Counted from the first letter of the stretch, positions 21,459-50,499 are shown. The stretch: 64,000 nucleotides of DNA from Squalus acanthias (GCA_030390025.1 CM059432.1:5146001-5210000), one strand, 5' to 3'. Made by a program: numbers and translations. The notes: generated by a model not told the origin, from the letters alone.

Positions 21459-22290
21459 CATGGGCTGGGAGGATGGGAGAGCGTAGACAAAGAGGACACA
21501 GACTGGATGGAAAAAGAGGAGGAGAACTGAAGCTCAAAGTAATTGCAGGGCTGGGCTCTGAAATGATCTGTAAATTTGCAGTCTCAGCACTCGGACTGAG
21601 TCTGGGAGCAAGCGGGCTGGCCAAAAAGGCACATGGCAGCCAGATAGAAGCATCTGGAGCAGGCAGACAGTCTTGACGAGCGAGTGTACCAGGCAATGCT
21701 TGCCGAAAAGATACGCCAAGGAGACCTTTGCTCCATTCTCAAACCGAACCCCCACCGCGAGTTAATCCTACCCGAAATCTATCTCTCACTCATGCTGGTT
21801 TCCTCCTCAACTATTCACATAAAGTAAGCACTAAAAATATCATGGCTAGTTTAAATCAATCACAAACAGGATGTAAAGGGCTGACTTTAATGAATCATGC
21901 ACTTCGCTCTGAACCTTTCAAAACAATAGCCGAGTCAAAGAAGAAATAGCAGTCGCTTAAAAATGGTTCAGCCAAAAGTATTTATACAATATGAAACAGG
22001 CCAATGTGAAGTCACATTTCAGCTGTCAAGTACTGTACACATATGCCACAAGGAATGCCCACACAACTTATGGAACCCCAAAATTTTCTTAGTCTAGAGG
22101 CTGCAAAATTATACCGTAATTACAAGTAAAGCATGGGAATGCAAACGCTGGGAAAAAATATTCAAGAAACGCTGGCCAAACAAGCTTTCTGTTTTAATTT
22201 CCAACACCTAGAATTAAATGTAAACTTTAAACAGCTTCCAATAAGCCGTGGTGCCAAAAATAATTAATAAACATGAAATTGAGAGCTTAC

Positions 22291-22485
22291 CGCTGATATT
22301 GAGATCGTAATCTCCTGCTGTAATCACATTAGCAACCAATCCGTCTGCAGGCTGACTGGCAGAAACCACCTCGCTTAACAGCTTCCGAATGGCAGTCTGC
22401 TGTGGTGGCTGGGTCACAATGCCGGTAACACTGATCCTCAGGTTTTTAATAACATGGCTCTGGTTGTTGGGATCTCGCATGTGAA
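22291..22485 (-). CDS. TRAPPC8: TRAPPC8 coding exon 2
   Basis: Encodes (V)HMRDPNNQSHVIKNLRISVTGIVTQPPQQTAIRKLLSEVVSASQPADGLVANVITAGDYDLNIS. Pyrimidine-rich acceptor ...TCTAG, donor G|GTAAGC, 195 nt, in phase with exon 1. Confidence 0.96.
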
Positions 22486-24234
22486 CTAGACAGAAAGAAA
22501 AGTAGCAAACAAATCACTAAACAGATTTAATAAATTTTAAAAGTCTCACTGCAGTACCCTGACACTGCATGCTCCAATTCCATACCGATTAAAAAGCTAC
22601 CCGGAGTGCACGGAGACAGCACATTATTACACAAGAGATCCCCACCTCTCTGGAGACCATTCAGCCCATTGTGTCTGTGCCAGCTTCTTGAAAGAGCTAT
22701 CCCACTCCCAGCTCATTCTCCCATAGCTCTGCAACTTTTCTTTTTCAAGGATTTAGCCAATTCCTTTTTGAAAGTTACTATTGAATCTGCTTCCACCACC
22801 CTTTCAGGCAGCTCATTCCAGATCACAACAACTTGCTGCGTAAAAATCTTATCTCCCCTGCGGTTCTTTTGCCAACTATCTTAAATCTGTATCCTCTGGT
22901 TCCTTCCTGCCACTGGAAACAGTTTCTCCTTATTTATTCTATCAAAAGCCTTCATGATTTTGAAGACCTATTAAATCTCCCCTTTAACCTTCTCTGCTCT
23001 AAGGAGGACAACCCCAGCTTCTTTAGACTCTACACGTAACTGAAGTCCCGCAACCCTGGTATCATATGGGTAGGCCATTTAGGACTGAGATGAAGAGAAA
23101 TTTCTTCACTCAGAGGGTGGTGAATCTTTGGAATTCTCTACCCCAGAGGGCTGCGGATGCTGAATCCCTGAGTATATTCAAGGCTGAGATCGATAGATTT
23201 TTGGACTCTAGGGGAATCAAGGGATATGGAGATCGGGCAGGAAAGTGGAGTTGTAGTCGAGGATCAGCCATGATCTTATTGAATGGTGGAGCAGGCTCGA
23301 GTGGCTGTATGGCCTACTCCTGCTCCTAATTCTTAAGCTCTTATGTTCTTATTCCAGTAAATCTTTTCTGCATTCACTCCAAGGCCTTGACATCCTTCCT
23401 AACGTATGGCGCCCAGAATTAGACAATACTCTAGCTGAGGCCTAACCAGTGATTTATAACAGCTTAGCATAGCTTCATTGCTTTTGTACTCTATGCCACT
23501 ATTTATAAAGTCCAGGATCCCGTATGCTTTTTTAACAGCCTTCTCAACTTGTCTTACCACCTTCAAAAGATTTATGTATGCAAACCCCCAGGACACACTG
23601 TTCCTCCACCCCCTTTAAAATTGTGCCATTTCATTTACATTGCCTCTTCTTCCTCTTCCTGTCAAATGCACCCAAAAGCAAATCGAACTATATATCGTAA
23701 AAAAAACCATAGCAGCACATAAATGGTAGTAGTTTAGATTCATGCTTTTTAGTGTGTCGGGAATCTGCTCGATAATTAAACCTAGCAACTTCAATAGGTA
23801 GAAGCAGCAATGAATTCCAACCATTAACAATGATGGGGAGGAACTGGAGAACAAGAGTCAGTATGAAAAAACACGATTAAAAAAAGAATATTTAAATAAA
23901 TCATTGTATTTAGAGGGAAATTAAGCTACATTAAAAAACACAGCATGGATGTAACTATCACATCAGATACTTGTAAACTTTGAGCAGAAATGTAGAAAGA
24001 ACATGGATTTTCACAGCCGAACAGACTGTCTGCCTAGTTTTTATGATTGAATCGGCAACTGTACAAGTAACCTGCAAAGATGAGAATCTGTACAGTGTTT
24101 AAAAAAAACATGCAATTGTGTGAAAGATAATCAACAAATTGTGGAAAATATATAGACAGACACCAAATTAAAATGCACACCTGCAGTTCTAGATGCAAAA
24201 TATCCATTTTGTTTTCTACATTTTGTACACAGAG

Positions 24235-31315: not shown

Positions 31316-31472
31316 CTTCAGACGTCAGGCGGCAGAAAGGCCTGACCAGCTCGGCGAAAGTCAGGTTGTTTTTCCGCGTCGACGTCTCGGCGGCCTCGCT
31401 GCACAGGACGGCCACCATGGGCACGAAGGTGTCCTGGATGAACTCCTGGACGCTCTGCACGCACTGAGCCAT
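31316..31472 (-). CDS. TRAPPC8: TRAPPC8 coding exon 1 (trafficking protein particle complex subunit 8)
   Basis: Encodes MAQCVQSVQEFIQDTFVPMVAVLCSEAAETSTRKNNLTFAELVRPFCRLTSE, matching the TRAPPC8 N-terminus. ATG at 31472 inside a CpG island, 157 nt, phase-1 donor G|GTTTGT. Confidence 0.96.
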
Positions 31473-36529: not shown

Positions 36530-37240
36530 ACAACAACAACTTGCATTTGTACAGCACCTTTATCGTATTAAAACGCCCCTATAGCGCTTCACAGGAGCCG
36601 TTATCAAACAAGATTTGACGCCGAGCCACGAAAGGAGATATTAGGACAGAAGAGGTAGGTTTTAAGGAGCCTCTTAAAGGAGGAAAGAGAGGTAGAGAGG
36701 GAGAGAGGTTTAGGGAGGGAATTCCAGAGCTTAGGGCCCAGGCAGCTGAAGGCACGGCCACCAATGGTGGAGCGATTATAATCAGGGATGGTCAAGAGGG
36801 CAGAATTAGAGGAGCGCAGATATCTCGGGCAGTTGTGGGGCTGGAGGAGATTACAGAGATAGGGAGGGGCGAGGCCATGGAGGGATTTGAAAACAAGGAT
36901 GAGAATTTTGAAATCGAGGCGCTGCTTAACCGGGAGCCAATGTAGGTCAGCGAGCACAAAGGGGTGATGGGCGAACGGGACTTGGTGCGAGTTAGGACAC
37001 GGGCAGCCGAGTTTTGGATCACTTCAAGTTTATGTGTGGTGGAATGTGGGAGGCCGGCCTGGTGTGCGTTGGAATAGTCAAGTCTAGAGGTAACAAAGGC
37101 ATGGATGAGGGTTTCAGCAGCGGATGAGTTGAGGCAGGGGCGGAGTCAGGCGATGTTACGGAGGTGGAAGTAGGCGGTCTTTGTTACGCTGCGGATATGT
37201 GGTCGGAAGCTCATTTCAGGGTCAAATATGACACCAACAT
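36530..37240 (-). mobile_element. L2 LINE 3' fragment (others at ~1125-1490, 48535-49245, 56865-57275)
   Basis: LHWLPVKQRLDFKIL...RYLRS...GGRAFS...PKLWNSLP and a TGCAAGTTGTTG tail. Confidence 0.85.
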
Positions 37241-37373
37241 GATTTGAAAACAAGGATGATAATTTTAAAATAAAAATTTAGATTGCATCATCACGCATTA
37301 CTTGCACGTACTGCATTTATTTCTTTCAATTAACAAGTGTCTACATGTTTGTCTGAAGGACTGAAACTCATGT

Positions 37374-37781
37374 TCACAATGGTAGGGTCCCCTGCTGGCA
37401 GGCTGCACACAGCAGAGTGCAAGACGCTAAGCCACAACTTCCACAAACCAACGAGGTGTGAGATGTCCGACAAATTTGGCATTTACAAGGAAGAAAGTTG
37501 CCAGCCAAGTCATTCTCTTCAACATAAAACTGATGAGCTGGGAGATTACCTTCTTTCATTTTCAGCAACGCATCGTTGCAATTGTTCATTGATTTTGACT
37601 CTAAACCAGGACCTTTCCGCCAATTCAAACCAATGTGGTTTGGTGCAGAATATAGCTCGGAAGCAGCATAACAGGGCAAACCCGAGGCGGTGAGGAGTGA
37701 GGGTATCAGGGGCCTTTCTTCTTCATTCACAGTGCTCACTGAGTTTGATGAAAACGAAAGTGTTGTGTTTGTAAAGTTTTC
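37374..37781 (-). pseudogene. SPATA2-like terminal exon with Cys-rich zinc-finger-like end, probably frameshifted and no longer translated
   Basis: Pyrimidine-rich acceptor TTTCAG| opens a 135-codon frame ending KCQICRTSHTSLVCGSCGLASCTLLC, with Cys spacing like the SPATA2 C-terminal finger. The +1 frame continues CCVQPASRGPYHCEHEFQSF. Confidence 0.55.
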
Positions 37782-39443
37782 CTGAAATGAGTGTGTTGGA
37801 ACATGGGACATGGAGAAGGAAGAGGCAGAGAGGAAAATTAAGGCTAGCTTAGCATTAGCTTACGAGGCAAATGGTGTTTAAATTAGTATTTCCTTACAGC
37901 TAGAATAATTAGTTTCAAGGGGGGGAAATATTGGGTTGCTTTGCGCCTCCCGTTAGCGCCCGGGCCCGGCGCCGCTACCGCCTCCAGTGAAATTCAGCGG
38001 GAGTTTAGCGGCTGTGGTAGCCAGTAGTGCCCCATGGCGCTACACCTCTGGCGATGACATCATCACCATGCGCAGAGCTCCTCGCTCGCGCCCCCTGACC
38101 TACCGCCGGACGCCATGTCCGACAGGGTCAGGGTGCCGTGTTTGCGGCCGCGGCAGCGCTAATTAAAGGGCAGGTGCCGGGCAGCCATTTGTTTTTGGGC
38201 CTCCTGCCAGCACCTGCCCCCTCTCGCCTCCTCTTGCGGGGCGCCGGCCGCGATCGCTCAGCCTGGCGCTCCTCTCGAGTGCTGGGTTGTTTTCCTGGCA
38301 CCCCGCTCCCCGGTGGTCCAGCAGGGCCCTGGTGCGCGCTGCGTTAGTCCCCTCCCCTTTAATCAGGGGAGGGAGGCCTGCAATACCGCGGCGCTATGTG
38401 CCGGCTCGCGTGGCGCTGTTGCACGTAGCGCCGCCATATTGAAAGACATTGTACCTGCACCTTAAAAAACCTTGCTCAAGAAGAGCATTTTGGATAGTTG
38501 CCTGGAATCCAGATTGGACATACAGCTGCAAAATGGTATAATAAGTAAGACTCGCTTGTTCACACAGAAAAGCAGGCCAATTAGGAGTTGGAAGCAGATG
38601 AGATAAGGGCCATGTTAGATGACATGAAGCTTAGTCTTTGGGCTAGGCTGGCTATAATGGAAAACTACTGGAGGGAAGTGGCCACGTTAAGTCAGGTGAC
38701 AGAAGGAATCCAATCAAGGGAAAAGAGGCAGATTGGAATTCAATACTGGCACAGAATGATAGAAAAACAGACATTTTGTGTTTTAAAGTCTAATACAATT
38801 TTAGAATGCATGCTTACATCTATTGCACTCTGTCTGTGAATCTACTCCACTTGTAAATTGCTTTGCACACAGAAGGAAGAAATGAAGGTATTGAACCTGA
38901 AGCAACGACTGTTTTCATTTTTTAAAATTCGTTTATGGGATGTGGGCGTCGCTGGCTAGGCCCAGCATTTATTGCCCATCCCTAATTGCCCTCGAGAAGG
39001 TGGTGGTGAGCCGCCTTCTTGAACCGCTGCAGTCCGTGTGGTGAAGGTGCTCCCACAGTGCTGTTAGGTAGAGAGTTTCAGGATTTTGACCCAGCGACGA
39101 TGAAGGAACGGCCGATATATTTCCAAGTCAGGATGGTGTGTGACTTGGAGGGGAACTTCGAGGTGGTGGTGTTCGCATGTGCCTGCTGCCCTTGTCCTAG
39201 ATGGAAGAGGTCGCGAGTTTGGGAGGTGCTGCCGAAGAAGTCTTGGCGAGTTGCTGCAGTGCATCTTGTAGATGGTACACACTGCAGCCACGGTGCGCTG
39301 GTGGTGGAGGGAGTCAACTACTCAAGTAAAGAGACAGCATGGTGTCTTTACCAACATCATTTACTTCAGAGTGCCTCTTTTTTTATTTGGTTTCCTCAAA
39401 TTAAGTTTGCAAATTCTCTTCCAGGTGCAATCTGTTCAAATTC

Positions 39444-41550
39444 GATTTGAGTACAGGAGCAAGGATGTCTTACGACAGTTATACAGGGCCTTGGTGAGAC
39501 TGAAGGGATAATTACAAGTCCTAGCCCTTTCGGACTACCCCAGATCAGGCGTATTCCCCAGACGTTCACCTTCAACTAAAGTTAGCAGTAGCCGGATCCT
39601 ATAAGACGCTTAATTGGGTCTAAAGGTCAGACTGCCTCTCCCTAAAGGAAAGGAACGGTCTGAAGATGTTACCGTCCTCTGGATAGTACTTTTAATAAGT
39701 TTAACTAGACTGTAACCTTCTGGATATTATGAGGGTCCGGAATACCTCCCAGAATTCTGCAACTCCTCTGAGTGTACAGAAATTGAGTTCGCGAGTTTAT
39801 ACAGAAATACTCTGTGAGATCATTCTAAAAATATATAGATTTATTAAAGAACCGACATTTAGTTAACATTTAGTTCTGGCAATCGCAACTTTAACCGTTC
39901 AAAATACAAATAGCTTACATTTCTTATCAGAGATCCTTATTCTCAAATCTTAACTTCGTTACATTTCCACACTTCTACTTATTTCTTAATCCAGAATATC
40001 CACCAAAATCAAATACCTTGATTACCCGAGACTCAGAGTTGTAAACTACAGAGCGTGCCTGTGAAGTTGAGAAACGCTTGCCCCGTTCAGCGACTTCTGA
40101 CTGTCCATTTGAAAAGCTCTTATTTTTATATCTTTTTTTGGTGGTTTATCCTTTGAAGTTTTCCTGCTGATGTTAGCTAATTGTCTCAAGTCATTCTCCA
40201 TTGAATTGTTTTCTATTCTTTATTGTCATTTCAGCTGTTAGCTTTTTGACTTGTCTCCTGTTTAGGTGTTTCAAAACCATCAAAAAAAACAATATGACAG
40301 TAGTATTTATTTGAAGTGATTCTTAGGAAGTCTTTCTATTGAATTTCTAATATCACTTAACTACTTGTAAGCCAGACGTCGTGTCTCCTAACTATTCCAT
40401 TTTCAATACAAACACAATGTAATTGCTTGGTGTCATCGATTGATATTATATTTTCAAAGCCTTTCTGTAGGTATATTTTACAACTTGTAAATTGAAAACA
40501 CTTCTCTTAGGGTGTTTACTTGTTTTCTTGCTATCTCAATTGGTTGCATATTTAATCGTGTTTCCTGTTTCTAAGTTTAACATAAAACTATTTTACGACA
40601 GGTATTTCTTTTACCTGATGTCATTTTTTCAAAGGCACTTGTTTTTTTAAATGTTCTGTGCACCTGTTCGACGTGTTAAATTTCAACACTTTACTTGGGT
40701 CATTCCATTGTGTTGGTTCCAATGTTCAGACATAGAGGAACCTCCAGCCTGCTGTTTCAATAGGGGCCTTGTCTCTGTATTTACAGCCCAATTCCCATTT
40801 CAAAGCTTGTTTTCACAGCTTTGTGTTAACAAACCAGCTTATCTCATCAGCCTGTATTTCTGTTTTACGGCCTGTGTCGCTGAGGCTTTCAGATTTTTAA
40901 CCCCAGTTTGTTATGTTTTAATATTATCAAAAATCTGTTTATAGGATGGTGTATTTTTCTGAAATATGGCTATTCCATTACAAGACCACACCTGGAGTAC
41001 TGTGTGCAGTTTTGGTCTCCTTACCTAAGAAAGGATATACTTGCCATAGAGGGAGTGCAGCGAAGGTTCACCAGACTGATTCCTGGGATGGCAGGACTGT
41101 CGTATGAGGAGAGATTGGGTCGACTAGGCCTGTATTCACTAGAGTTTAGAAGAATGAGAGGGGGATCTCATTGAAACGTATAAAATTCTGACAGGGCGAG
41201 ACAGACTGGATGCAGGGAGGATGTTTCCCCTGGCTGGGGGGGTCTAGAACGAGGGGTCACAGTCTCAGGATACGGGGTAGGACATTTAGGACTGAGATGA
41301 GGAGAAATTTCTTCACTCAGAGGGTGGTGAACCTGTGGAATTCTCTACCACAGAAGGCTGTGGAGGCCAAGTCACTGAATATATTTAAGAAGGAGATAGA
41401 TAGATTTCTAGACACAAAAGGCATCAAGGGGTGTGGGGAGAGAGCGGGAATATGGTATTGAGATAGAGGATCAGCCATGATCATATTGAATGGCGGAGCA
41501 GGCTCGAAGGGCCGAATGGCCGACTCCTGCTCCTATTTTTCTATATTTCT
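39444..41550 (+). mobile_element. CR1 LINE (copy A) inserted into the SPATA2-like exon, carrying a nested solo LTR
   Basis: CR1 ORF2 C-terminus and tail. AATTC is duplicated at 39439-39443 and 41551-41555. Confidence 0.85.
39501..40982 (-). mobile_element. 1482-bp solo LTR-like insertion
   Basis: TG...CA ends and 4-bp TSD AGAC splitting a CR1. Minus-strand TATAAAA at ~40125 and AATAAA at ~39842. Confidence 0.75.
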
Positions 41551-41899
41551 AATTCATTTTCATCCGTTTTAAAACAAGTGTCTCATTTTGTCTTTCTTCC
41601 ACGATGTGGAGGCAGCCCATCCTATCTTCAACATGTCTTTTTCTTCCCTTTAGCATCTCTCGCTCATTGCCCCCCAGCGCCTTAACGCGTGAATCCATCT
41701 CTGCCAAACGTTCGCATTCCAGCTGGGCAAGGAGGAACTCAAAAGCCAGCTTCTTCAAGTGCTGGGATCCATCGGGGCCCCGGTAGCAGTAAACCTCTAT
41801 CTCCTGCTCCTGGTGATAACCGACACACGCCAACAATTTGAGGACATCCACTTCACGCATGGCGGGCCAAACATAGTGTACAAAGGCAGGTGCGAAGAC
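41549..41899 (-). CDS. SPATA2-like second coding exon, duplicated distal copy
   Basis: Nearly identical to 43785-44135 (one internal substitution, L/V) with its own intact acceptor. Also truncated by a CR1 tail. Confidence 0.65.
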   Translation of the reverse strand, partial: VFAPAFVHYVWPAMREVDVLKLLACVGYHQEQEIEVYCYRGPDGSQHLKKLAFEFLLAQLECERLAEMDSRVKALGGNEREMLKGRKRHVEDRMGCLHIVEERQNETLVLKRMKMN

Positions 41900-42232
41900 C
41901 TGGAAAACAGAAACACACACATACATTCTGATAATGCGTGTTACACTGTGTAGTATATCACACAGGAAAAACAGAAAGGCAGAGTATTATTTAAATGGTG
42001 ATAGATTGGGGAAATGTTGATGTACAAAGGGACCTGGGTGTCCTTGTACACCAGTCACTGAAAGCAAACATGCAGGTGCAGCAAGCAATTAGGAAGGCAA
42101 ATGGTATGTTGGCCTTCATTGCAAGAGGATTTGAGTACAGGAGCAAGGATGTCTTACTACAGTTGTACAGGGCCTTGGTGAGACCACACCTGGAGTACTG
42201 TGTGCAGTTTTGGTCTCCTTACCTGAGAAAGG

Positions 42233-43261
42233 TGTAAGCATCGGCGCAGGCCCCAAGGATTTTTGTATCGGACATTTTGTATGATTGTTGCTGCTGATTG
42301 ACCAGCAGCCTGTTTGGAGAAGATGGGAGGGGCCCAGGTGTTCGAATTGGACAGTAGATTCCAGCCAGGCCGACAAACTGATTACAGGAGAATGTCTGAG
42401 ACAAAGGAAGGCCATTGGAAACTAATGGGAAACTACTTAACCCGGGATCGGGTAAGAAGTGCAGCCCATCATCTGCCATTAACACTAGCAGCTCGATGGG
42501 ATAGCCCCGAAAGGTGGGAAACCAGACAAAGAAGGGTGATTAAAAAGACATCACTGCAATACACAGACCTTAATGAACTTTTAGGGTATAAGAGAAGGCA
42601 GCTTTGGCCATTCTCGCTCTCTCTCGCTTCCTTCGCCTTCACGTGCCCTCATCCCTGAACCAAGAACCAAGCCCTCCGTCTGAGACGGAGAGAAGAAACC
42701 ACCACGAGCGACAAGAGCCTCGCCTTGCTCTTCGACTGTAGGAACGAACCTCGAAACTGGGACTTGGATACTGCATCGGCGATACGGAACCAGGAGACAC
42801 GTTCTACACAGGGGAGCAGCGAGCAAGAAAACAGACCATCGGGGTGAGCATTGTCCGAGCCCACGCATCCTTAAGACCACCAGTACTGTGTGAGGGGGTG
42901 TTGTGTGTCCCAACCAGTCCAGAGGGGTTTAGTGGGAAGGTTCTGTGTGTATTATACAGTGTATGTTCTGGGGTTTGTGGGACAAGTCCATGTTATACTC
43001 TGTATAGCAACACAGTGTGATTTTAGGCGTCTTAATACGAGACAGGGGCCTGTTCAACGGGCCAAGTTGTATTGTTGTACTGTTTGTTTTACGCCACCAG
43101 GCATTTTACATACCGGAGGCGGGTGTGTGTGTTAACTTTATTAAACACTGTACGGTTGAGTCTGAAAAGCTTGTCTGTGTTCCAATCCTGTTCACCGTAA
43201 TTCCTGTCATTGAGAACTAAGTAGGAGAGGTGATTCGAACCACCAAGGCAAACCACCTACA
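42233..43261 (+). mobile_element. ~1.03-kb solo LTR nested in CR1 copy B (~41963-43787)
   Basis: TGTAAG...CTACA ends, TSD AAGG, TATAA at ~42587, ATTAAA at ~43140. Confidence 0.8.
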
Positions 43262-43784
43262 AAGGATATAATTGCCATAGAGGGAGTGCAGCGAAAGTTC
43301 ACCAGACTGATTCCTGGGATGGCAGGACTGTCGTATGAGGAGAGATTGGGTCGACTAGGCCTGTATTCACTAGAGTTTAGAAGAATGAGAGGGGATCTCA
43401 TTGAAACGTATAAAATTCTGACAGGGCTAGACAGACTGGATGCAGGGAGGATGTTTACCCTGGTTGGGTGGGGGGGGGTCTAGAACGAGGGGTCACAGTC
43501 TCAGGATACGGGGTAGGACATTTAGGACTGAGATAAGGAGAAATTTCTTCACTCAGAGGGTGGTGAACCTGTGGAATTCTCTACCACAGAAGGCTGTGGA
43601 GGCCAAGTCACTGAATATATTTAAGAAGGAGATAGATAGATTTCTAGACACAAAAGGCATCAAGGGGTGTGGGGAGAGAGCGGGAATATGGTATTGAGAT
43701 AGAGGATCAGCCATGATCATATTGAATGGCGGAGCAGGCTCGAAGGGCCGAGTGGCCGACTCCTGCTCCTATTTTTCTATGTTT

Positions 43785-44135
43785 CTATTTCATTTTCATC
43801 CGTTTTAAAACAAGTGTCTCATTTTGTCTTTCTTCCAGGATGTGGAGGCAGCCCATCCTATCTTCAACATGTCTTTTTCTTCCCTTTAGCATCTCTCGCT
43901 CATTGCCCCCCAGCGCCTTAACGCGTGAATCCATCTCTGCCAAACGTTCGCATTCCAGCTGGGCAAGGAGGAACTCAAAAGCCAGCTTCTTCAAGTGCTG
44001 GGATCCATCGGGGCCCCGGTAGCAGTAAACCTCTATCTCCTGCTCCTGGTGATAACCGACACACGCCAACAATTTGAGGACATCCACTTCACGCATGGCG
44101 GGCCAAACATAGTGTACAAAGGCAGGTGCGAAGAC
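43785..44135 (-). CDS. SPATA2-like second coding exon (C-terminal half of PUB domain), proximal copy, ends at a CR1-derived stop
   Basis: Acceptor TTTTCCAG| then VFAPAFVHYV...LLACVGY...KKLAFEFLLAQLECE...EDRMGC, resembling SPATA2 TYTGPFVYYV...ILSCMGY...FELFLAKVECE...EDVRGC. The stop lies in the abutting CR1 tail. Confidence 0.8.
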   Translation of the reverse strand, partial: VFAPAFVHYVWPAMREVDVLKLLACVGYHQEQEIEVYCYRGPDGSQHLKKLAFEFLLAQLECERLAEMDSRVKALGGNEREMLKGRKRHVEDRMGCLHILEERQNETLVLKRMKMK

Positions 44136-44468
44136 CTGGAAAACAGAAACACACACATACATTCTGATAATGCGTGTTACACTGTGTAATATATCACACA
44201 GGAAAAACAGAAAGGCAGAGTATTATTTAAATGGTGATAGATTGGGGAAATGTTGATGTACAAAGGGACCTGGGTGTCCTTGTACACCAGTCACTGAAAG
44301 CAAACATGCAGGTGCAGCAAGCAATTAGGAAGGCAAATGGTATGTTGGCCTTCATTGCAAGAGGATTTGAGTACAGGAGCAAGGATGTCTTACTGCAGTT
44401 GTACAGGACCTTGGTGAGATCACACCTGGAGTACTGTGTGCAGTTTTGGTCTCCTTACCTAAGAAAGG

Positions 44469-45494
44469 TGCAAGCATCAGCGCAGGCCCCAAGGATTTTT
44501 GTATCGGACATTTTGTATGATTGTTACTGCTGATTGACCAGCAGCCTGTTTGGAGAAGATGGGAGGGGCCCAGGTGTTCGTGATGGACAGGAGATTCCAG
44601 CCAGGCCTACAAACTGATTACGGGAGAATGTCTGAGACAAAGGAAGGCCATTGGAAACTAATGGGAAACCACTTAACCCGGGATCGGGTAAGAAGTGCAG
44701 CCCATCATCTGCCATTAACACTAGCACCTAGATGGGATAGCCCCGAAAGGCGGGAAACCAGACAAAGAAGGGTGATTAAAAAGACATCACTGCAATACAC
44801 AGACCTTAATGAACTTTTAGGGTATAAGAGAAGGCAGCTTTGGCCATTCTCACTCTCTCTCGCTTGCTCTCGCCTTCACGTGCCCTCATCTCTGAACCAA
44901 GAACCGAGCACTCTGTCCGGGACGGAGAGAAGAAACCACCAGGAGCGACAAGAGCCTTGCCTTGCTCTTCGACTGTAGGAACGAACCTCGAAACTGGGAC
45001 TTGGATACTGCATCGGCGATACGGAACCAGGAGACACGCTCTACACAGGGAAGCAGCGAGCAAGAAAACGGACAATCGGGGTGAGCATTGTCCGAGCCCA
45101 CGCATCCTTAAGACCACCGGTACTGTGTGAGGGGGTGTTGTGTGTTCCAACCAGTCCAGAGGGGTTTAGTGGGGAGGTTCTGTGTGTATTATATAGTGTA
45201 TGTTCCGGGGTTTCTGGGACAAGTCCATGTTATACTCTGTATAGCAACACAGTGTGATTTTAGGCATCTTAATACGAGACAGGGGCCTGTTCAACGGGCC
45301 AAGTTGTATTGTTGTACTGTTTGTTTTACGCCACCAGGCATTTTACATACCGGAGGCAGGTGTGTGTGTTAACTTTATTAAACACCGTCCGGTTGAGTCC
45401 GAAAAGCTTGTCTGTGTTTCCAATCCTGTTCACCGTAATTCCTGTCGTCTAGAACTAGAGAGGTGATTCGAACCACCAAGGCAAACCACCTACA
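44469..45494 (+). mobile_element. Duplicate of the ~1.03-kb solo LTR in CR1 copy C (~44199-46020)
   Basis: Same sequence family, same insertion site and same AAGG TSD as 42233-43261. Confidence 0.8.
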
Positions 45495-47583
45495 AAGGAT
45501 ATAATTGCCATAGAGGGAGTGCAGCGAAGGTTCACCAGACTGATTCCTGGGATGGCTGGACTGTCGTATGAGGAGAGATTGGGTCGACTAGGCCTGTATT
45601 CACTAGAGTTCAGAAGAATGAGAAGGGATCTCATTGAAACGTATAAAATTCTGACAGGGCTAGACAGACTGGATGCAGGGAGGATGTTTACCCTGGTTGG
45701 GTGGGGGGGGGTCTAGAACGAGGGGTCACAGTCTCAGGATATGGGGTAGGACATTTAGGACTGAGATAAGGAGAAATTTCTTCACTCAGAGGGTGGTGAA
45801 CCTGTGGGATTCTCTACCACAGAAGGCTGTGGAGGCCAAGTCACTGAATATATTTAAGAATGAGATAGATAGATTTCTAGACACAAAAGGCATCAAGGGG
45901 TATGGGGAGAGAGCGGGAATATGGTATTGAGACAGAGGATCAGCCATGATCATATTGAATGGCGGAACAGGCTCGAAGGGCTGAATGGCCTACTCTTGCT
46001 CCTATTTTTCTATGTTTCTATCACGATAGTTCTGTTGCACGCCTGATTTTTAGAACAATGTGCTACGCGAGGAGGAGATATAAATTGAAGAAAGAGCCAT
46101 ATAAAATGTACATTTAGATTGAGTAGATTGGACCTATACTCTCTGGAGTTTAGAAGAATGAGAGGTGATCTCATTGAAACGTATAAGATTCTAAGGGGGA
46201 TTGACAGGGTAGATGCTGAGAGGCTGTTTCCCCCTGGTTGGAGAGTCTAGAACTCGGGGGCAGAGTCTCAGGATAAGGGGTCGGCCGTTTACGACAGAAA
46301 TCACGTTAATCTGTGATGTTCCTTGCAATCGAATCGCCGGCCGATAGTCACTGTCTAGGCTCACACCTGAAGACTGGCCAGCACGAGTGAGGAGCTCGGC
46401 AGCTCGCCATCGAGTTGTACTCCAATATGTCACTCCATTCCGAAGAGAGGAGAAAACTGAGCAGTGGAAGGAAGTAAAAAAGACGACGACTTCAATGTCC
46501 TTTCCATAATAGCGTGCCTAAAACTGCACAGCAAACTCTAACTGTGGCCTAACCAATGTTTTATATAAATGAATCATTAATTCTTCACTTTTGTACTCTA
46601 CGCCCCTATTTATAAAATCCAAAATTCTGTTGGCTTTATCTACCAGCACTCATGCTTTCAAGGAATTATGTATTTCAATCTTTCAGTCTCTCTGTTCATC
46701 CCCACCCTCCAGTGTCTTTCCATTAAGTGTGAACTCCTATTGCTTGTTTTTTCTCCCAAAACGAACTACCTCACACTTATCCGCATTAAATCGCCTCTGC
46801 CACCCATCTGCCCCGTCCTTTAACCTGTACCCTGCGGCAGACTTTTGCACTGTTTATCCACAGACAACAAAAGAGGTGGCAGCACTGACCTTGGGTACGC
46901 CACTTACAACCCTTCTCTAGTGCAAGCAACATTCATTATCCGTAACACGTAAGAACATAAAAATTGGAGCAGGAGTCGGCCATACGGCCCCTCGAGCCTG
47001 CTCCGCCATTCGATAAGATCATGGCCGATCTTCGATCTCAACTCCACTTTCCCACCCGATCCCCATATCCCTCGATTCCCCTAGAGTCCAAAAATCTATC
47101 GATCTCAGCCTTGAATATACTCAACGACTGAGCATCCACAGCCCCCTGGGGTAGAGAATTCCAAAGATTCACAAGCCTCTGAGTGAAGAAATTTCTCCTC
47201 ATCTCAGTCCTAAATGGCTGACCCCTTATCCTGAGACTATGCCCCCTAGTTCTAGACTCTCCAGCCAGGGGGAAACAGACTCTCCGCATCTACCCTGTCA
47301 ATCACCCTTCAGAATCTTATATGTTTCAATGAGATCACCTCTCATCCTTCTAAACTCCAGAGAGTATAGGCCCAATCTAATCAATCGCTCCTCATAGGAC
47401 AACCCTCTCATCCCAGGAATCAATCCCATTTGTTTTATGTCCCTCAACCAATGTTCTATTGATTCTGTTACTTTTCCTCTTAGGCTTTCTGAAATATCCA
47501 TTTATACTGCATCTACTACAGTTCCTTTATCTATCCAATTGAACACTTTTTTTTTTAAACGTACCATCGTCAAACAAGACTTT

Positions 47584-48427
47584 GGGCTGGATTTTGAAAC
47601 TGGGGATGGGATGGAGGCGGGACTCCCACTTTTTGGGTTGTAGTCCCGCCTCCATCGACTTGTGGCCAACCCACTGTATTTTCACTTGATTGACCTTGTT
47701 GAGCCCGCCCAGCGGGCTCAGCAGGCCAATTAAGGGCCACCCGGCAACAGGTGACGTCACAGATTGACATTTCATCTGTCAAGAGCTTTTGACAGATGAA
47801 ATATCAGCGTTTGACAGCTCTGTGAAGCTGTCAAACATTGACAATCTGTACTCTAAGTTAATTCCTTCCTCTCAGGCTGATTTAGAGATCTCTGCAGAAC
47901 AAAAAGCAGAGGCTGCAGCTTTTGACAGCTCAACGGCCATTCTGCTTTCTGTGCCGGTGAGATTTCTAACTCCCGAGACCTGAAGGGCTGACACCTGCAG
48001 GAAGAAGTTAAGGTAAGTAAAACTTTTTTCCACACTTTACACTTACCTTACACACTTACCTCCGCACACATGCACCCATCACTCACCTGCCCACCGGACA
48101 TATCGACCCCTCCAACCCCTGCAGACCCACGGTCCGCCTCGCTGAAACGGCGTGGTTGGGACCTGTCGGAGAGCCCACATTTCAGGCATAAAAATAGGGA
48201 TTAGGCAAAAAACTGCCTGTTAACTACCTGTTAACAGGCAGTTTATTGCCACTAACCCCCTTCCCACCTCGGGGAGGCGGGTCCCAGCACAGGTCGGGTA
48301 CCCACCTTCAGCGAAACTGGCATGGAGGCGGGTTGTGGGCGGGATGGGGTCGGGACCCCCGATACAGCTATTTTCAATCCAGTCCCGCCTCCAAACCCGC
48401 CTCCACGGCTCAATGAAAATTCTGCCC
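47584..48427. mobile_element. PIF/Harbinger-like non-autonomous element
   Basis: Ends GGGCTGGATTTT / AAAATTCTGCCC, 3-bp TSD TTT. Confidence 0.65.
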
Positions 48428-49271
48428 TTTGTCTCAACAAATTTCGATGTGCATTTCTAAATCCATACTAACTTTATTTCAAATTATTGATTGTAAAAGA
48501 GTTTACCCACAACTGAAATTATCATATTACTTATCAACAACAACAACTTGCATTTATATAGCACCTTTAACGTAGTAAAACATCCCAAGACACTTCACAG
48601 GAGCGATTATAAAATGAAATTTGACACTGAGCCACATAAGGAGATATGAGGGCAGATTGGTCAAAGAGGTCGGTTTTAAGGAGCGTCTTAAAAGGAGGAG
48701 AGAGAGGTAGCGAGGTGGAGAGGTTTAGGGAGGGAATTCCTGAGCTAAGGGCCTTGGCAGCCGAAGGCACGGCCACCAATGGTGGAGCGATTAAAATCGG
48801 GGATGCACAAGAGGCCAGAATTAGAGGAGCGCAGATATCTCAGGGGGTCGTGGGGCTGGAGGAGATTACAGATTTAGGGAGGGGGTGAGGCCATGGAAGG
48901 ATTTGAAAACAAGGATGAGAGTTTTAAAAATTGAAGTGTTGCTTAACCGGGAGCCAGTGTAGGTCAGCGAGCACAGGGGGTGATGAGTGAACGGGACTTG
49001 GTGCGAGTTAGGACACGGGGCAGCAGAGTTTTGGATGTCCTCAAGTCTGCAGAGGGTAGAAAGTGGGAGGCCGGCCAGCAGTGCATTGGAAAAGTCAAGT
49101 CTAGAGGTAACAAAGGCAGGGATGAGGCAGGGGAGGAGTCGAGCAATGTTCTAGAGATGGAAATAGGCCGTCTTAATGACGGCGCAGATATGTGGTCGGA
49201 AACTCATCTCAGGGTAAAATATGACACCAAGGTTGCGAACAGCACAGGCCATTGTGGAAAACTGAACTCAC

Positions 49272-49640
49272 CTTAATTCTTTTAAATTCTTTTCTCCATG
49301 GATAAATCAGAAGGTTGACGCAAAGCTTTTCAAAGACTTCATAAGCTTTTTGAAGAGCATTGAAGCTGGATGATTTTTCTCTGCTCAATGCATTGCTAAT
49401 AATCTGGGAAAAATGTATTTCACACCGTTCACTGGGTTCGCGGTGGCCTTTCAGCCATTCAGTCACGAGGGCACGGATTGCTGTTTCCTCGCGAGAGGCC
49501 TCACCAACACTGTTTAATTTGGATTCCCGGAAACGCACATATCTTTGACACAGATTTTCTTTTTCAGCCTCCGTATATAACTTGCCAGAGTTAAAAATGT
49601 TCATCCGCAGATGCAGAACTTTGCAAAAGGTCTTGCCCAT
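49272..49640 (-). CDS. SPATA2-family (SPATA2/SPATA2L-like) protein, first coding exon, N-terminal half of PUB domain
   Basis: Open frame ending ...ALQKAYEVFEKLCVNLLIYPWRKEFKRIK resembles SPATA2 NLFLYPWKKEFRSIK. Phase-0 donor AAG|GTGAGT falls at the SPATA2 intron position. Acceptor TTCAG/TGCAG lies just before ATG 49640; the true start Met is uncertain. Confidence 0.85.
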
Positions 49641-50499
49641 CTGCAACTGAATGGACAAATATAATCATTGCATAATTTATTAGGATTAACCGGAGGGATT
49701 CTTCCCACATACAAATAGTCAACCTTACAATAATCTAACATTTTAATGTTTTAAACAATACAATTAAAAGTTTCTCCTTGTTATTGGCCCGATCCTGTTC
49801 CTCGACTACAGGTTGCCCCTCGGCAACATCATCCGTAAACACGGGGTCAGTTTCCATTTTTACAACAACGACATCTTGCATTTCTCTAGCGCCTTTAATG
49901 TAGTAAAACGTCCCAAGACGCTTCACAGGAGCGATTATCAAACAAAATTTGACACTGAGCCACATCAAGAGATATCAGGACAGGTGACGAAAAGCTTGGT
50001 CAAAGAGGTCGGTTTTAAGGAACGACTTAAAGGAGGAGAGAGAGGTGGACATTGACATTCACACTGAAAACAAAAGAAGGCTGAGGGGTGACCTAAATAG
50101 AGGTCTTTAAAATTATGAAACATTTTGATAGAGTAGATACAGAGAGAATGTTTCCACTTGTGGGGAAGAGCAAAACTAGAGGCCATCAATATAAGATTGT
50201 CACCAAGAAATCCAATAGGGAATTCAGAAGAAACTTCTTTACCCAGAGAGTGGTGAGAATGTGGATCTCGCTACCACAGGGAGTGGTTGAAGTGAATAGT
50301 ATAGATGCATTTAAGGGGAGGCTGGACAAGCATATGAGGGAGAAGGGAATAGAGGGTTACACTGATAGAGTTAGATGAGGAAAGACGGGAGGAGGCTCGA
50401 GTGGAGCATAAACGCCGGCATGGACTGGTTGGGCCGAATGGCCTGTTTCTGTGTCGTATATCCTATGTAATCCTATGTAAAAAGACACCTGTAGAACTG

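What the first reader, a model, noticed from the sequence alone, without database searches (positions are those of the whole stretch)
37374..49640. A third SPATA2-family gene next to TRAPPC8: candidate whole-genome-duplication ohnologue absent from mammals
Seen: a PUB-domain gene with the SPATA2 intron position and a C-terminal Cys finger lies directly upstream of TRAPPC8. Known: human SPATA2 sits near RNF114, B4GALT5 and SNAI1 (20q13); SPATA2L near RNF166 and SNAI3 (16q24); TRAPPC8 beside B4GALT6, RNF125 and RNF138 (18q12), where I know of no SPATA2 paralogue. Inference: this divergent gene is the missing paralogon member, a possible extra CYLD/LUBAC-pathway adaptor retained in cartilaginous fish.
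Basis: partly seen in the sequence, partly recalled or inferred. Interest (0 to 1): 0.85.

Follow-up and report, generated by a model that had tools for sequence, protein, structure and literature searches.

The report
Fourth SPATA2-family gene beside TRAPPC8
A real, transcribed shark gene of the SPATA2 family lies between TRAPPC8 and an RNF125-type gene inside a duplicated gene block, and looks like an old vertebrate duplicate of SPATA2 that has so far been found only in sharks and rays.

Summary
On the minus strand there is a SPATA2-type PUB domain split by the family's phase-0 intron (exon 49272-49647; second exon at 41552-41899 and again at 43788-44135). A conserved Cys-finger exon lies at 37377-37781, 5.9 kb upstream of the TRAPPC8 start codon. 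A spliced RNA contig joins the two PUB exons.

The genome holds four SPATA2-family loci, not three: SPATA2 (C11), SPATA2L (C6), a 'si:ch211-189a15.5'-type gene (C6) and this one (C8). C8 and C11 carry the same three gene types in the same order and orientation: B4GALT5/6-type, SPATA2-type, RNF114/125-type. In a PUB-domain tree this gene groups with a catshark and a stingray protein. That clade is sister to, and outside, jawed-vertebrate SPATA2 (93/90), but an AU test does not reject a cartilaginous-fish-only duplication (p 0.14).

The catshark orthologue (394 aa) carries PUB, linker and finger. The SPATA2 Asp-Leu-Tyr HOIP-docking motif is absent, so a LUBAC link is doubtful.

In this assembly the second exon is tandemly duplicated and its frame ends in a stop at a repeat junction. 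How, or whether, the finger exon is joined is not shown. NCBI models already exist, and no paper was found. Verdict: new member of a known family, moderate interest.

The parts
49272..49647 (-). First coding exon: acceptor tcag|G at 49647, ATG at 49640, 123 codons, donor aag|gtgagt after 49272. Encodes the first half of the PUB domain.
   Evidence: Pfam PF21388 positions 2-99, E 8.2e-19. 5LJM match at E 1.8e-11. Sequence. RNA contigs of X1, X2 and X3 end exactly at 49647 and 49270 and carry further letters that do not fit there, 95 nt upstream in X1 record 2, which implies an upstream non-coding exon.
41549..41899 (-). Second coding exon, downstream copy B. 116 codons plus a TAG stop at 41549-41551. 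Encodes the second half of the PUB domain. This is the copy the RNA contigs fit.
   Evidence: PF21388 positions 98-193, E 4.9e-17. 5LJM match at E 3.7e-12. X1 record 2 joins 41897 to 49270. X3 record 19 fits 41582-41748 with no differences.
43785..44135 (-). Second coding exon, upstream copy A. It differs from copy B by 2 coding changes (Leu/Val and the last residue Lys/Asn).
   Evidence: 5 differences in 601 aligned bases.
41030..46004 (.). Tandem duplication, period 2233-2237 bp, about 2.2 copies. Each unit holds the second PUB exon plus pieces of an interspersed repeat.
   Evidence: the repeat finder families D1, D3 and D4 at 95-100% identity.
40950..41551 (+). Multi-copy interspersed repeat whose 3' tail abuts the end of the second exon. 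The stop codon of the exon's frame lies at this junction. The label 'retrotransposon-like' is recalled from the look of its ORFs; Pfam gave no match.
   Evidence: The same element occurs at least 6 times in the window, with its tail ending near 41552 (alignment). RNA-contig depth there is in the tens of thousands. Pfam has no match to its ORFs.
40820..40935 (-). Probable remnant of the linker. Different frames resemble residues about 213-250 of catshark P0015 and the tail of stingray P0001. All three frames contain stops.
   Evidence: Read by eye. tblastn did not report it. Weak.
37374..37781 (-). Conserved C-terminal exon: strong acceptor (long pyrimidine tract, cag|G at 37782), 135 codons, an 8-Cys B-box-like finger, and a stop at 37374-37376.
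   Evidence: 53% identity over 126 aa to P0015 residues 252-377, E 1.3e-33. Local match to the first Cys cluster of this genome's SPATA2 and SPATA2L. The equivalent part of the P0015 model has pLDDT 70-92 and weakly resembles B-box domains. No transcript evidence for its use.
31317..31472 (-). TRAPPC8 first coding exon, ATG at 31472.
   Evidence: PF12739 positions 1-40, E 5.2e-9. Translation. Genome search.
22217..22513 (-). ORF holding the TRAPPC8 second coding exon.
   Evidence: PF12739 positions 44-109, E 3.4e-7.

Best explanation
This is a genuine fourth member of the SPATA2 family, called 'C8-type' here. It is the paralogue of SPATA2 that belongs to the B4GALT6-TRAPPC8-RNF125 gene block. 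It most likely arose with that block in the early vertebrate genome duplications. It is retained in sharks and rays and was not found elsewhere.

Ancestrally it encodes about 390 aa in three parts:
- an N-terminal non-canonical PUB domain, the module with which SPATA2 binds and activates the deubiquitinase CYLD;
- a disordered linker;
- a C-terminal B-box-like Cys finger.

It lacks the Asp-Leu-Tyr-Thr motif with which SPATA2 docks onto HOIP. The most likely function is therefore a CYLD-directed adaptor or regulator acting outside LUBAC, as has been suggested for SPATA2L.

Shown: domain homology, fold, intron position, synteny, clade, and transcription with correct splicing of the two PUB exons. 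Inferred: the 2R origin, any binding to CYLD (my odds about 0.45), and no binding to HOIP.

In this assembly a repeat insertion and a 2.2-kb tandem duplication have disturbed the second exon. The only transcript form supported so far would give a 239-aa PUB-only protein.
For: Family and fold:
- PF21388 on both exons and on the orthologues P0015 (E 1.3e-36) and P0001 (E 6e-40).
- The AlphaFold model of P0015 has pLDDT 80-97 over residues 1-192. Its best PDB match is the SPATA2 PUB domain 5LJM (E 1.9e-8, TM 0.84 on the target).

Four loci: 9 PF21388 matches fall in 4 places of the genome, each with the same intron.

Synteny:
- On C8 the order is B4GALT exon 4,878,923(-), TRAPPC8 5,105,618-5,177,439(-), this gene 5,183,374-5,195,647(-), RNF125-family exon 5,239,239(+).
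- On C11 the order is B4GALT exon 36,167,814(-), SPATA2 36,598,139-36,610,503(-), RNF exon 36,623,311(+).
- PF18574 has only 3 matches in the genome, and two of them are these.
- The two B4GALT exons are each other's closest of the 8 compared.
- None of 92 unique ORFs of 50 aa or more between this gene and C8:5,230,000 has a Pfam match.

Tree (35 rows, 205 columns):
- C8-type clade 100/99.
- SPATA2 of teleosts, frogs, mammals, chimaera and this shark forms one side of a branch without it (93/90; 92% of bootstrap trees).
- C8-type plus SPATA2 group together at 87/84.

Orthologues: XP_072324579.1 (Scyliorhinus torazame, 394 aa) and XP_059804207.1 (Hypanus sabinus, 262 aa), both named 'spermatogenesis-associated protein 2-like'.

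Constraint: identity to the catshark protein is 66% for the first PUB exon, 54% for the second and 53% for the finger exon. That is the same range as this genome's SPATA2L (63%) and si189-type gene (56%) against their catshark counterparts.

Expression: contig X1 record 2 joins the two PUB exons at the GT-AG sites. Exon-bounded contigs occur in X2 and X3, and a contig inside the first exon in X4 (4 runs, one study).
Against: - The AU test does not reject a tree that holds C8-type together with chimaera and shark SPATA2 (lnL difference 15.2, p 0.14).
- The tree has no bony-vertebrate SPATA2L or si189 rows and no outgroup. Its bootstrap had not settled (correlation 0.974).
- No orthologue was seen outside elasmobranchs, not even in Callorhinchus, whose SPATA2 and SPATA2L are in the libraries. 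An elasmobranch-only origin therefore fits the taxon distribution equally well.
- In this assembly the frame of the second exon stops at the repeat junction in both copies.
- No good in-frame GT donor links the second exon to the finger exon.
- The linker remnant has stops in all frames.
- At the two PUB residues whose mutation weakened CYLD binding in human SPATA2 (Y114, T115; Elliott et al. 2016, passages read), this gene has Phe-Ala and the catshark Ser-Ala. T115A itself reduced binding. The stingray, shark and chimaera SPATA2 rows have Phe-Thr. The numbering is inferred with an offset of 4.
Confidence: 0.68

Rival explanations
1. The gene arose by a block duplication within cartilaginous fishes. 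A segment holding SPATA2, and perhaps its neighbours, was copied in the chondrichthyan or elasmobranch stem. It is not a product of the early vertebrate genome duplications. The long branch then pulls it outside the SPATA2 clade.
For: - The AU test does not reject C8-type plus chondrichthyan SPATA2 as one clade (p 0.14).
- Orthologues were found only in a shark and a ray.
- The clade's stem is long (0.64 changes per column).
Against: - The free tree places it outside all jawed-vertebrate SPATA2 (93/90).
- The neighbours are those of the conserved TRAPPC8 block, which in human holds B4GALT6, TRAPPC8, RNF125 and RNF138 (recalled, not tested here). A recent copy would have to have landed exactly between TRAPPC8 and the RNF gene, in the same orientation to the RNF gene as SPATA2 has to its own.
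- The two B4GALT exons differ at 3 of 41 residues, and the C2HC exons of the RNF genes differ clearly.
Confidence: 0.15
2. Whatever its origin, in this species the locus is a recently broken or decaying gene. A repeat insertion ended the reading frame after the PUB domain and a tandem duplication followed. The transcripts seen would then be residual and not translated into a working protein.
For: - A stop codon lies at the repeat junction in both exon copies.
- The 2.2-kb duplication is young: 99% identity between the two full copies over the 300-nt D1 family, 97% for the third, partial copy.
- Linker-like sequence at 40820-40935 has stops in every frame.
- No usable in-frame donor was found.
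Against: - Both PUB exons and the 135-codon finger exon are intact. Their identity to the catshark protein matches that of the working paralogues, so any loss must be very recent.
- Splice sites are canonical and used.
- The spliced contig stops fitting the reference 10-13 nt before the junction and continues with 23 other letters. The sequenced animals may therefore carry a different allele there.
- A PUB-only protein could still bind a partner.
Confidence: 0.3
3. It is a transposed SPATA2 or SPATA2L orthologue, that is, the ordinary gene moved next to TRAPPC8.
For: None beyond the family membership.
Against: - SPATA2-type and SPATA2L-type genes are both present elsewhere in the same genome with full-length second exons of 430 and 354 codons. 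They group with named SPATA2 and SPATA2L proteins.
- Identity of this gene to them is only 30-36% in the PUB domain.
Confidence: 0.01

Closest known systems
SPATA2 (human structure 5LJM; Elliott et al. 2016, PMC5031558, passages read)
   Same: - Non-canonical PUB domain with the same fold (TM 0.84 for the catshark orthologue's model).
- The same phase-0 intron.
- The conserved core around the Pro-Trp-Lys/Arg-Lys-Glu-Phe stretch, with Asn98 kept.
- A C-terminal Cys finger.
- Sister position in the tree.
- The same neighbours by type and orientation.
   Different: - 30-36% identity in the PUB domain.
- No Asp-Leu-Tyr-Thr motif for HOIP. 0 of 2 orthologue proteins carry one, against 7 of the 10 SPATA2 rows; of the other three, two are short models and one (echidna, 442 aa) lacks the motif.
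- One Cys cluster instead of two.
- Protein about 390 aa instead of 520-550.
- Thr115 equivalent is Ala in the two sharks.
SPATA2L
   Same: Same domain order. Also lacks an Asp-Leu-Tyr motif in the linker (0 of 11 rows). Known to co-purify with CYLD (Elliott et al. 2016, passage read).
   Different: Separate clade (100/99) and a different chromosome (C6). SPATA2L keeps two Cys clusters and a single large second exon.
'si:ch211-189a15.5'-type proteins (NCBI names of elasmobranch models; zebrafish-derived name)
   Same: A further SPATA2-family member that carries no human-derived gene name. PF21388 domain with the same intron.
   Different: Separate, very long-stemmed clade (100/100). Proteins of 580-644 aa that keep an Asp-Leu-Tyr motif in all 11 rows. 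Lies on C6, 17 Mb from SPATA2L.
NCBI models XP_072324579.1 (Scyliorhinus torazame) and XP_059804207.1 (Hypanus sabinus), 'spermatogenesis-associated protein 2-like'
   Same: Orthologues of this gene: 54-66% identity, clade support 100/99.
   Different: - They are automatic predictions without any study attached.
- The stingray model ends without the finger.
- The older catshark model GCB82084.1 (228 aa) reads the finger exon in another frame.
- Their start corresponds to residue 24 of the frame here. This gene has Thr in place of that Met and starts 23 codons further upstream.

Membership tests
SPATA2 family (Pfam PF21388) | PUB-like domain scoring above the Pfam cut-off of 27 bits | tested here: met
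   68.4 and 62.5 bits on the two exons. 126 and 137 bits on the orthologues P0015 and P0001.
SPATA2 family (Pfam PF21388) | Fold of the SPATA2 PUB domain | tested here: met
   The model of the catshark orthologue matches 5LJM at E 1.9e-8, TM 0.84 on the target, rmsd 3.0. The window's own exons match 5LJM by sequence.
SPATA2 family (Pfam PF21388) | Phase-0 intron inside the PUB domain at profile position 98/99 | tested here: met
   Splice sites. The same break occurs in all 4 loci. A spliced contig confirms it.
SPATA2 family (Pfam PF21388) | C-terminal Cys-rich (B-box-type) finger | tested here: met
   8-Cys cluster at 37377-37480, conserved in P0015. Local match to the first cluster of SPATA2 and SPATA2L. 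Confident model (pLDDT 70-92) with weak likeness to B-boxes (probability 0.94, E 1.2). No Pfam match.
SPATA2 orthologue group (LUBAC-CYLD adaptor) | Asp-Leu-Tyr-Thr PUB-interacting motif in the linker (binds HOIP) | tested here: not met
   No [DE][LMIF]Y in the linker of P0015 or P0001. The window's finger-exon ORF has a Glu-Leu-Tyr that the catshark does not share.
SPATA2 orthologue group (LUBAC-CYLD adaptor) | Falls inside the SPATA2 clade and lies next to the RNF114-type gene at the B4GALT5-type locus | tested here: not met
   The clade excludes it (93/90). That locus is on C11 and is occupied by another gene.
SPATA2 orthologue group (LUBAC-CYLD adaptor) | CYLD-binding surface residues (human Tyr114, Thr115) | tested here: inconclusive
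   Phe-Ala here, Ser-Ala in the catshark, Phe-Thr in the stingray and in shark and chimaera SPATA2. Binding itself is not testable with these tools.
SPATA2L orthologue group | Falls inside the SPATA2L clade | tested here: not met
   The SPATA2L clade (100/99) excludes it. The genome's SPATA2L is at C6:5,191,671-5,193,270.
Ohnologue from the early vertebrate genome duplications | Lies in a paralogous block with other duplicated families in conserved order | tested here: met
   Three families (B4GALT5/6-type, SPATA2-type, RNF114/125-type) lie in the same order and orientation on C8 and C11.
Ohnologue from the early vertebrate genome duplications | Duplication older than the split of cartilaginous and bony vertebrates | tested here: inconclusive
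   The free tree says yes (93/90). The AU test does not reject the younger alternative (p 0.14). There is no outgroup.
Ohnologue from the early vertebrate genome duplications | Absence, or a relic, at the same place in bony vertebrates and chimaeras | not testable with these tools
   No vertebrate genome other than the window's own is held. The only indirect evidence is that the protein library gave just 2 elasmobranch clusters closer than SPATA2.

The most novel reading that the evidence does not exclude
The vertebrate ancestor had four SPATA2 ohnologues. The TRAPPC8-linked one survives only in elasmobranchs, as a motif-less PUB plus B-box protein that binds CYLD but not HOIP. It would then steer or sequester CYLD away from LUBAC. 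In this shark a retroelement insertion is currently turning it into a PUB-only protein, a natural truncation that could act as a competitive CYLD binder.
Probability: 0.2. Interest if true: 0.6.

Novelty: new member of a known kind. Interest (0 to 1): 0.45.

Why it matters
SPATA2 is the bridge between the deubiquitinase CYLD and the linear-ubiquitin ligase LUBAC in TNF and NOD2 signalling. Its relative SPATA2L is barely understood.

If the family began with four ohnologues, two of which are unnamed and one known only from sharks and rays, nature has provided ready-made variants that separate the CYLD-binding module from the HOIP-docking motif. This one has the PUB domain without the motif. The si:ch211-189a15.5 type keeps the motif. 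Such variants are useful for dissecting what each part does.

The locus is also a clean example of differential ohnologue loss in the well-known chromosome 16q/18/20q paralogy group. It gives a dated marker for that group.

It is not a new kind of system.

Tried and rejected
- **RNA runs.** The look-up of sequencing runs listed no holder on record as RNA. The 4 runs are of one study and labelled 'RNA?' by guess. I treat them as cDNA only because one contig lacks the intron.
- **Finger exon, no cover.** In read laying the bin 37441-37881 has no cover in any of the 4 runs, and no listed joint reaches it.
- **Unlaid contig end.** The 23 unlaid letters at the 3' end of X1 record 2 could not be read, so I could not tell a repeat-free allele from a tail variant. 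Two models of a repeat-free allele (junction at 41566 or at 41552) do not predict the break at 41562.
- **Homologue search.** The search for homologous proteins with the first PUB exon and lengths 'longer' gave nothing. The tool's word filter makes that weak.
- **Finger exon in the own genome.** It found only itself below E 0.2.
- **Earlier findings.** Four look-ups gave nothing.
- **Rfam.** No family matched on 30000-64000.
- **Repeat ORFs.** Pfam on them gave no reverse-transcriptase match, so 'retrotransposon-like' rests on copy number and recall.
- **Splice donors.** I looked for an in-frame donor in the second exon. Only CAT|GTTGAA and CTT|GTTTTA are in phase. Both are poor, and the contig reads through both.
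- **Alternative join.** A phase-1 donor at TGGG|GTTAAA (about 40905) with an acceptor at ...gctag|CC (about 37838) would keep the frame, but that acceptor has no pyrimidine tract. Rejected as unsupported.
- **Neighbours of the two C6 loci.** Of 137 unique ORFs of 85 aa or more, only two had Pfam matches: a weak deoxynucleoside-kinase hit and a retrotransposon pol. This is not enough to place the si189-type gene in a paralogon.
- **GC-rich island at 37950-38470.** I considered it as a TRAPPC8 alternative first exon. Rejected, because many variant contigs cover each site (multi-copy) and the TRAPPC8 start lies at 31472.
- **Literature.** 'SPATA2' + 'SPATA2L' + 'paralog' gave 10 papers, none on family evolution by title and abstract start. 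'SPATA2' + 'TRAPPC8' + 'RNF125' gave 0. 'ch211-189a15.5' gave 0. A 2-of-6-terms search with SPATA2, ohnolog, shark and related words had SPATA2 in none of the top 15. No supplements were opened.

Full report
**What is there.** The window is C8:5,146,001-5,210,000 of a 3.71-Gb assembly. By its closest protein matches it is a shark: 72-77% identity to Heterodontus, Heptranchias and Pristiophorus proteins.
- The frame at 49209-49664 matches Pfam PF21388 (SPATA2_PUB-like) positions 2-99 at E 8.2e-19.
- The frames at 43785-44222 and 41549-41986 each match positions 98-193 at E 5e-17.
- The frame at 37374-37859 has no Pfam match.

The first coding exon starts with an acceptor at 49647, has its ATG at 49640 and ends aag|gtgagt after 49272, giving 123 codons. 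The second starts ttttccag|GTC at 44135 (copy A) or 41899 (copy B) and runs 116 codons to a TAG. Both halves also hit the solved human SPATA2 PUB domain 5LJM, at E 1.8e-11 and 3.7e-12.

TRAPPC8 follows on the same strand. Its ATG is at 31472, and Trs85-domain exons lie at 31317-31439 and 22292-22528. Seven more lie left of the window, down to C8:5,105,618.

The second PUB exon lies inside a tandem duplication with a period of 2233-2237 bp and about 2.2 copies, spanning 41030-46004. The two exon copies differ at 5 of 601 aligned bases, 2 of them coding. In both copies the frame ends in a stop exactly where the tail of a multi-copy interspersed repeat abuts the exon. The same element occurs at least six times in the window, and aligning the copies places its end near 41552. 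Pfam does not recognise the repeat's ORFs. Between the downstream exon copy and the Cys-finger exon lie about 3.8 kb holding more repeats, an A-rich unique stretch and a GC-rich multi-copy island.

**Transcription.** Four runs of one study hold the first exon. Their label as RNA is a guess. Laid on 37000-50200, an 832-nt contig of X1 fits 49647-49270 and then continues directly at 41897-41562. The intron is removed at the GT-AG sites, which is what makes it cDNA. The contig carries 95 more letters upstream of 49647, pointing to a non-coding first exon outside the laid stretch, as in other SPATA2 genes. Contigs of X2 and X3 stop at the same exon borders, and an X4 contig lies inside the first exon. 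At the one coding site that tells the copies apart within the fitted part, the contigs carry the copy-B letter. The X1 contig stops fitting at 41562, 10-13 nt before the stop and junction, and has 23 further letters that were laid nowhere. I cannot explain this (note 76).

**The Cys-finger exon belongs to the gene.** A full HMMER scan of 1.84 billion representative proteins with the second exon gave 14 hits.
- The two best (66% and 61% identity) are XP_059804207.1 of the stingray Hypanus sabinus (262 aa) and GCB82084.1 of the catshark Scyliorhinus torazame (228 aa).
- The cluster mate of the catshark hit is XP_072324579.1, 394 aa. NCBI names these models 'spermatogenesis-associated protein 2-like'.
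- The other 12 hits are SPATA2-like proteins of bony fishes, chimaera, frogs and mammals, or unnamed fragments that look the same.

The 394-aa catshark protein aligns to the window in three blocks:
- residues 2-104 to 49571-49263 (66%);
- residues 102-217 to 41899-41552 (54%);
- residues 252-377 to 37754-37377 (53%, E 1.3e-33).

The finger exon has a strong acceptor, with a long pyrimidine tract and cag|G at 37782. Its Cys pattern matches the first Cys cluster of this genome's SPATA2 and SPATA2L. An AlphaFold model of the catshark protein, built from a 33-row alignment, gives the following:
- a confident PUB domain (pLDDT 80-97, residues 1-192) whose best PDB match is 5LJM (E 1.9e-8, TM 0.84 on the target);
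- a disordered linker (residues 213-338);
- a confident small C-terminal domain (pLDDT 70-92) with weak likeness to B-boxes (probability 0.94, E 1.2).

**Is it intact here?** This is not shown. The frame of the second exon stops at the repeat junction. Its only in-phase GT sites are poor, and the contig reads through them. Sequence at about 40820-40935 resembles the catshark linker and the stingray tail in different frames, and all three frames contain stops (read by eye). On the other hand, all three coding pieces are open. They are as similar to the catshark protein (53-66%) as this genome's SPATA2L (63%) and si189-type gene (56%) are to theirs. Any loss of function must therefore be recent, or the insertion is an allele or assembly feature. 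The supported transcript form predicts a 239-aa PUB-only protein.

**Family census and synteny.** PF21388 has 9 matches in the genome, in four places, each split at profile position 97-99:
- C11:36,598,139-36,610,503(-), second exon 430 codons;
- C6:5,191,671-5,192,475(+), second exon 354 codons;
- C6:22,322,462-22,334,860(+), second exon 536 codons;
- this locus on C8.

Database names identify the C6 genes as SPATA2L and as 'uncharacterized protein si:ch211-189a15.5'. The C11 gene groups with named SPATA2. The gene is thus the fourth member, not the third.

The RNF114/125/138/166-specific zinc finger PF18574 has only three matches:
- C8:5,239,239(+), 29 kb right of the window;
- C11:36,623,311(+), 13 kb from SPATA2's first coding exon;
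- C6:705,762(-).

B4GALT catalytic exons lie at C8:4,878,923(-) and C11:36,167,814(-). Of the 8 best B4GALT exons compared, these two are each other's closest, at 92.7% over 41 aa against 71% at most for any other. Both chromosomes therefore carry B4GALT(-), SPATA2-type(-), RNF(+) in that order, with TRAPPC8 inserted only on C8. None of 92 unique ORFs between this gene and C8:5,230,000 has a Pfam match.

**Phylogeny.** I aligned the PUB region (205 columns kept) of 35 rows:
- this gene and its 2 orthologues;
- 10 SPATA2 rows (this shark, chimaera, 3 bony fishes, 2 frogs, echidna, tiger, one unnamed);
- 11 SPATA2L rows and 11 si189-type rows, all cartilaginous fishes.

Rows left out were the 228-aa catshark model, five fragmentary or unnamed hits (P0004, P0005, P0006, P0008, P0013), five hits, three hits, and all cluster mates except P0015, P0021 and P0028.

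In the IQ-TREE LG+C20 tree all four groups are single clades: C8-type 100/99, SPATA2L 100/99, si189 100/100 and SPATA2 93/90. C8-type is sister to SPATA2 at 87/84. The gene does not nest inside an orthologue clade.

The test is not decisive. Forcing C8-type together with shark and chimaera SPATA2 costs 15.2 log-likelihood units, with p-AU 0.14. The bootstrap had not settled, and there is no outgroup and no bony-vertebrate SPATA2L or si189 row. The case for an origin in the early vertebrate duplications therefore rests mainly on synteny.

**Function.** In human SPATA2 the PUB domain binds the CYLD USP domain and activates it. [quoted passage not shown] Y114A, T115A and T115N weaken CYLD binding (Elliott et al. 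2016, PMC5031558, passages read). A motif scan gave these results:
- An Asp-Leu-Tyr in the linker is present in 7 of the 10 SPATA2 rows. Of the other three, two are short models and one (echidna, 442 aa) lacks the motif.
- It is present in all 11 si189-type rows.
- It is absent from the linker of all 11 SPATA2L rows.
- It is absent from both C8-type orthologue proteins. The window's finger-exon frame has a Glu-Leu-Tyr that the catshark does not share.

At the Tyr114-Thr115 position, which falls right after the intron, this gene has Phe-Ala, the catshark Ser-Ala and the stingray Phe-Thr. Fish and chimaera SPATA2 have Phe-Thr (numbering inferred with an offset of 4).

My reading is a CYLD-directed PUB plus B-box protein that does not dock on HOIP. 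CYLD binding itself is uncertain, at about 0.45.

**Novelty.** Automatic NCBI models exist for two species under a generic name. In the searches I found no paper that mentions a TRAPPC8-linked SPATA2 paralogue or si:ch211-189a15.5. It is a new member of a known family, of moderate interest.

Noticed in passing
G000 C6:22,322,462-22,336,000 (loci L007, L010): A further SPATA2-family gene of the 'si:ch211-189a15.5' type. All 11 rows of its clade keep an Asp-Leu-Tyr motif in the linker like the HOIP-docking motif of SPATA2, so it may be a second LUBAC-binding member. It shares a chromosome with SPATA2L here, 17 Mb apart.
   Followed up: partly
window 41030-46004: A 2.2-kb tandem duplication of about 2.2 copies at 95-100% identity carries a whole coding exon. 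It is probably young, and an assembly artefact is not excluded.
   Followed up: partly
window 37950-38470: A GC-rich island lies between the PUB exons and the finger exon. It is covered by many variant RNA contigs (up to 12 at one site in a run, summed depth up to about 730), so it is a multi-copy element. No Rfam family matches it. It contains an ATG followed by a GT donor that looks like a short first exon.
   Followed up: partly
window 40140-40313: Contigs of runs X3 and X4 fit this A-rich non-coding stretch without a difference, at the same low depth as the gene's exons. It could be a 3' untranslated region, a retained intron or internal priming.
   Followed up: no
window 62001-64000: A strongly C+T-rich stretch on the plus strand (GC 0.63, GC skew -0.65, AT skew -0.60). 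It is probably a low-complexity or microsatellite region. The next 7.8 kb to the right (L034) gave no unique ORFs.
   Followed up: no
G000 C6:5,175,795-5,178,800 (L028:4795-7800): An open 1002-codon frame with protease, reverse transcriptase, RNase H and integrase domains (an LTR-retrotransposon pol) lies 13 kb from SPATA2L.
   Followed up: no
G000 C6: about 22,359,900-22,360,280 (L023:7897-8277, minus): A weak deoxynucleoside-kinase match (PF01712, E 4.9e-5, below the cut-off) lies beside the si189-type gene. If it is TK2 (human 16q21, recalled), that gene would also sit in a 16q-like region.
   Followed up: no
window 49572-49640: The orthologue models start at a Met that is Thr here. This gene's frame instead opens 23 codons further upstream, 7 nt after the acceptor.
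   Followed up: no
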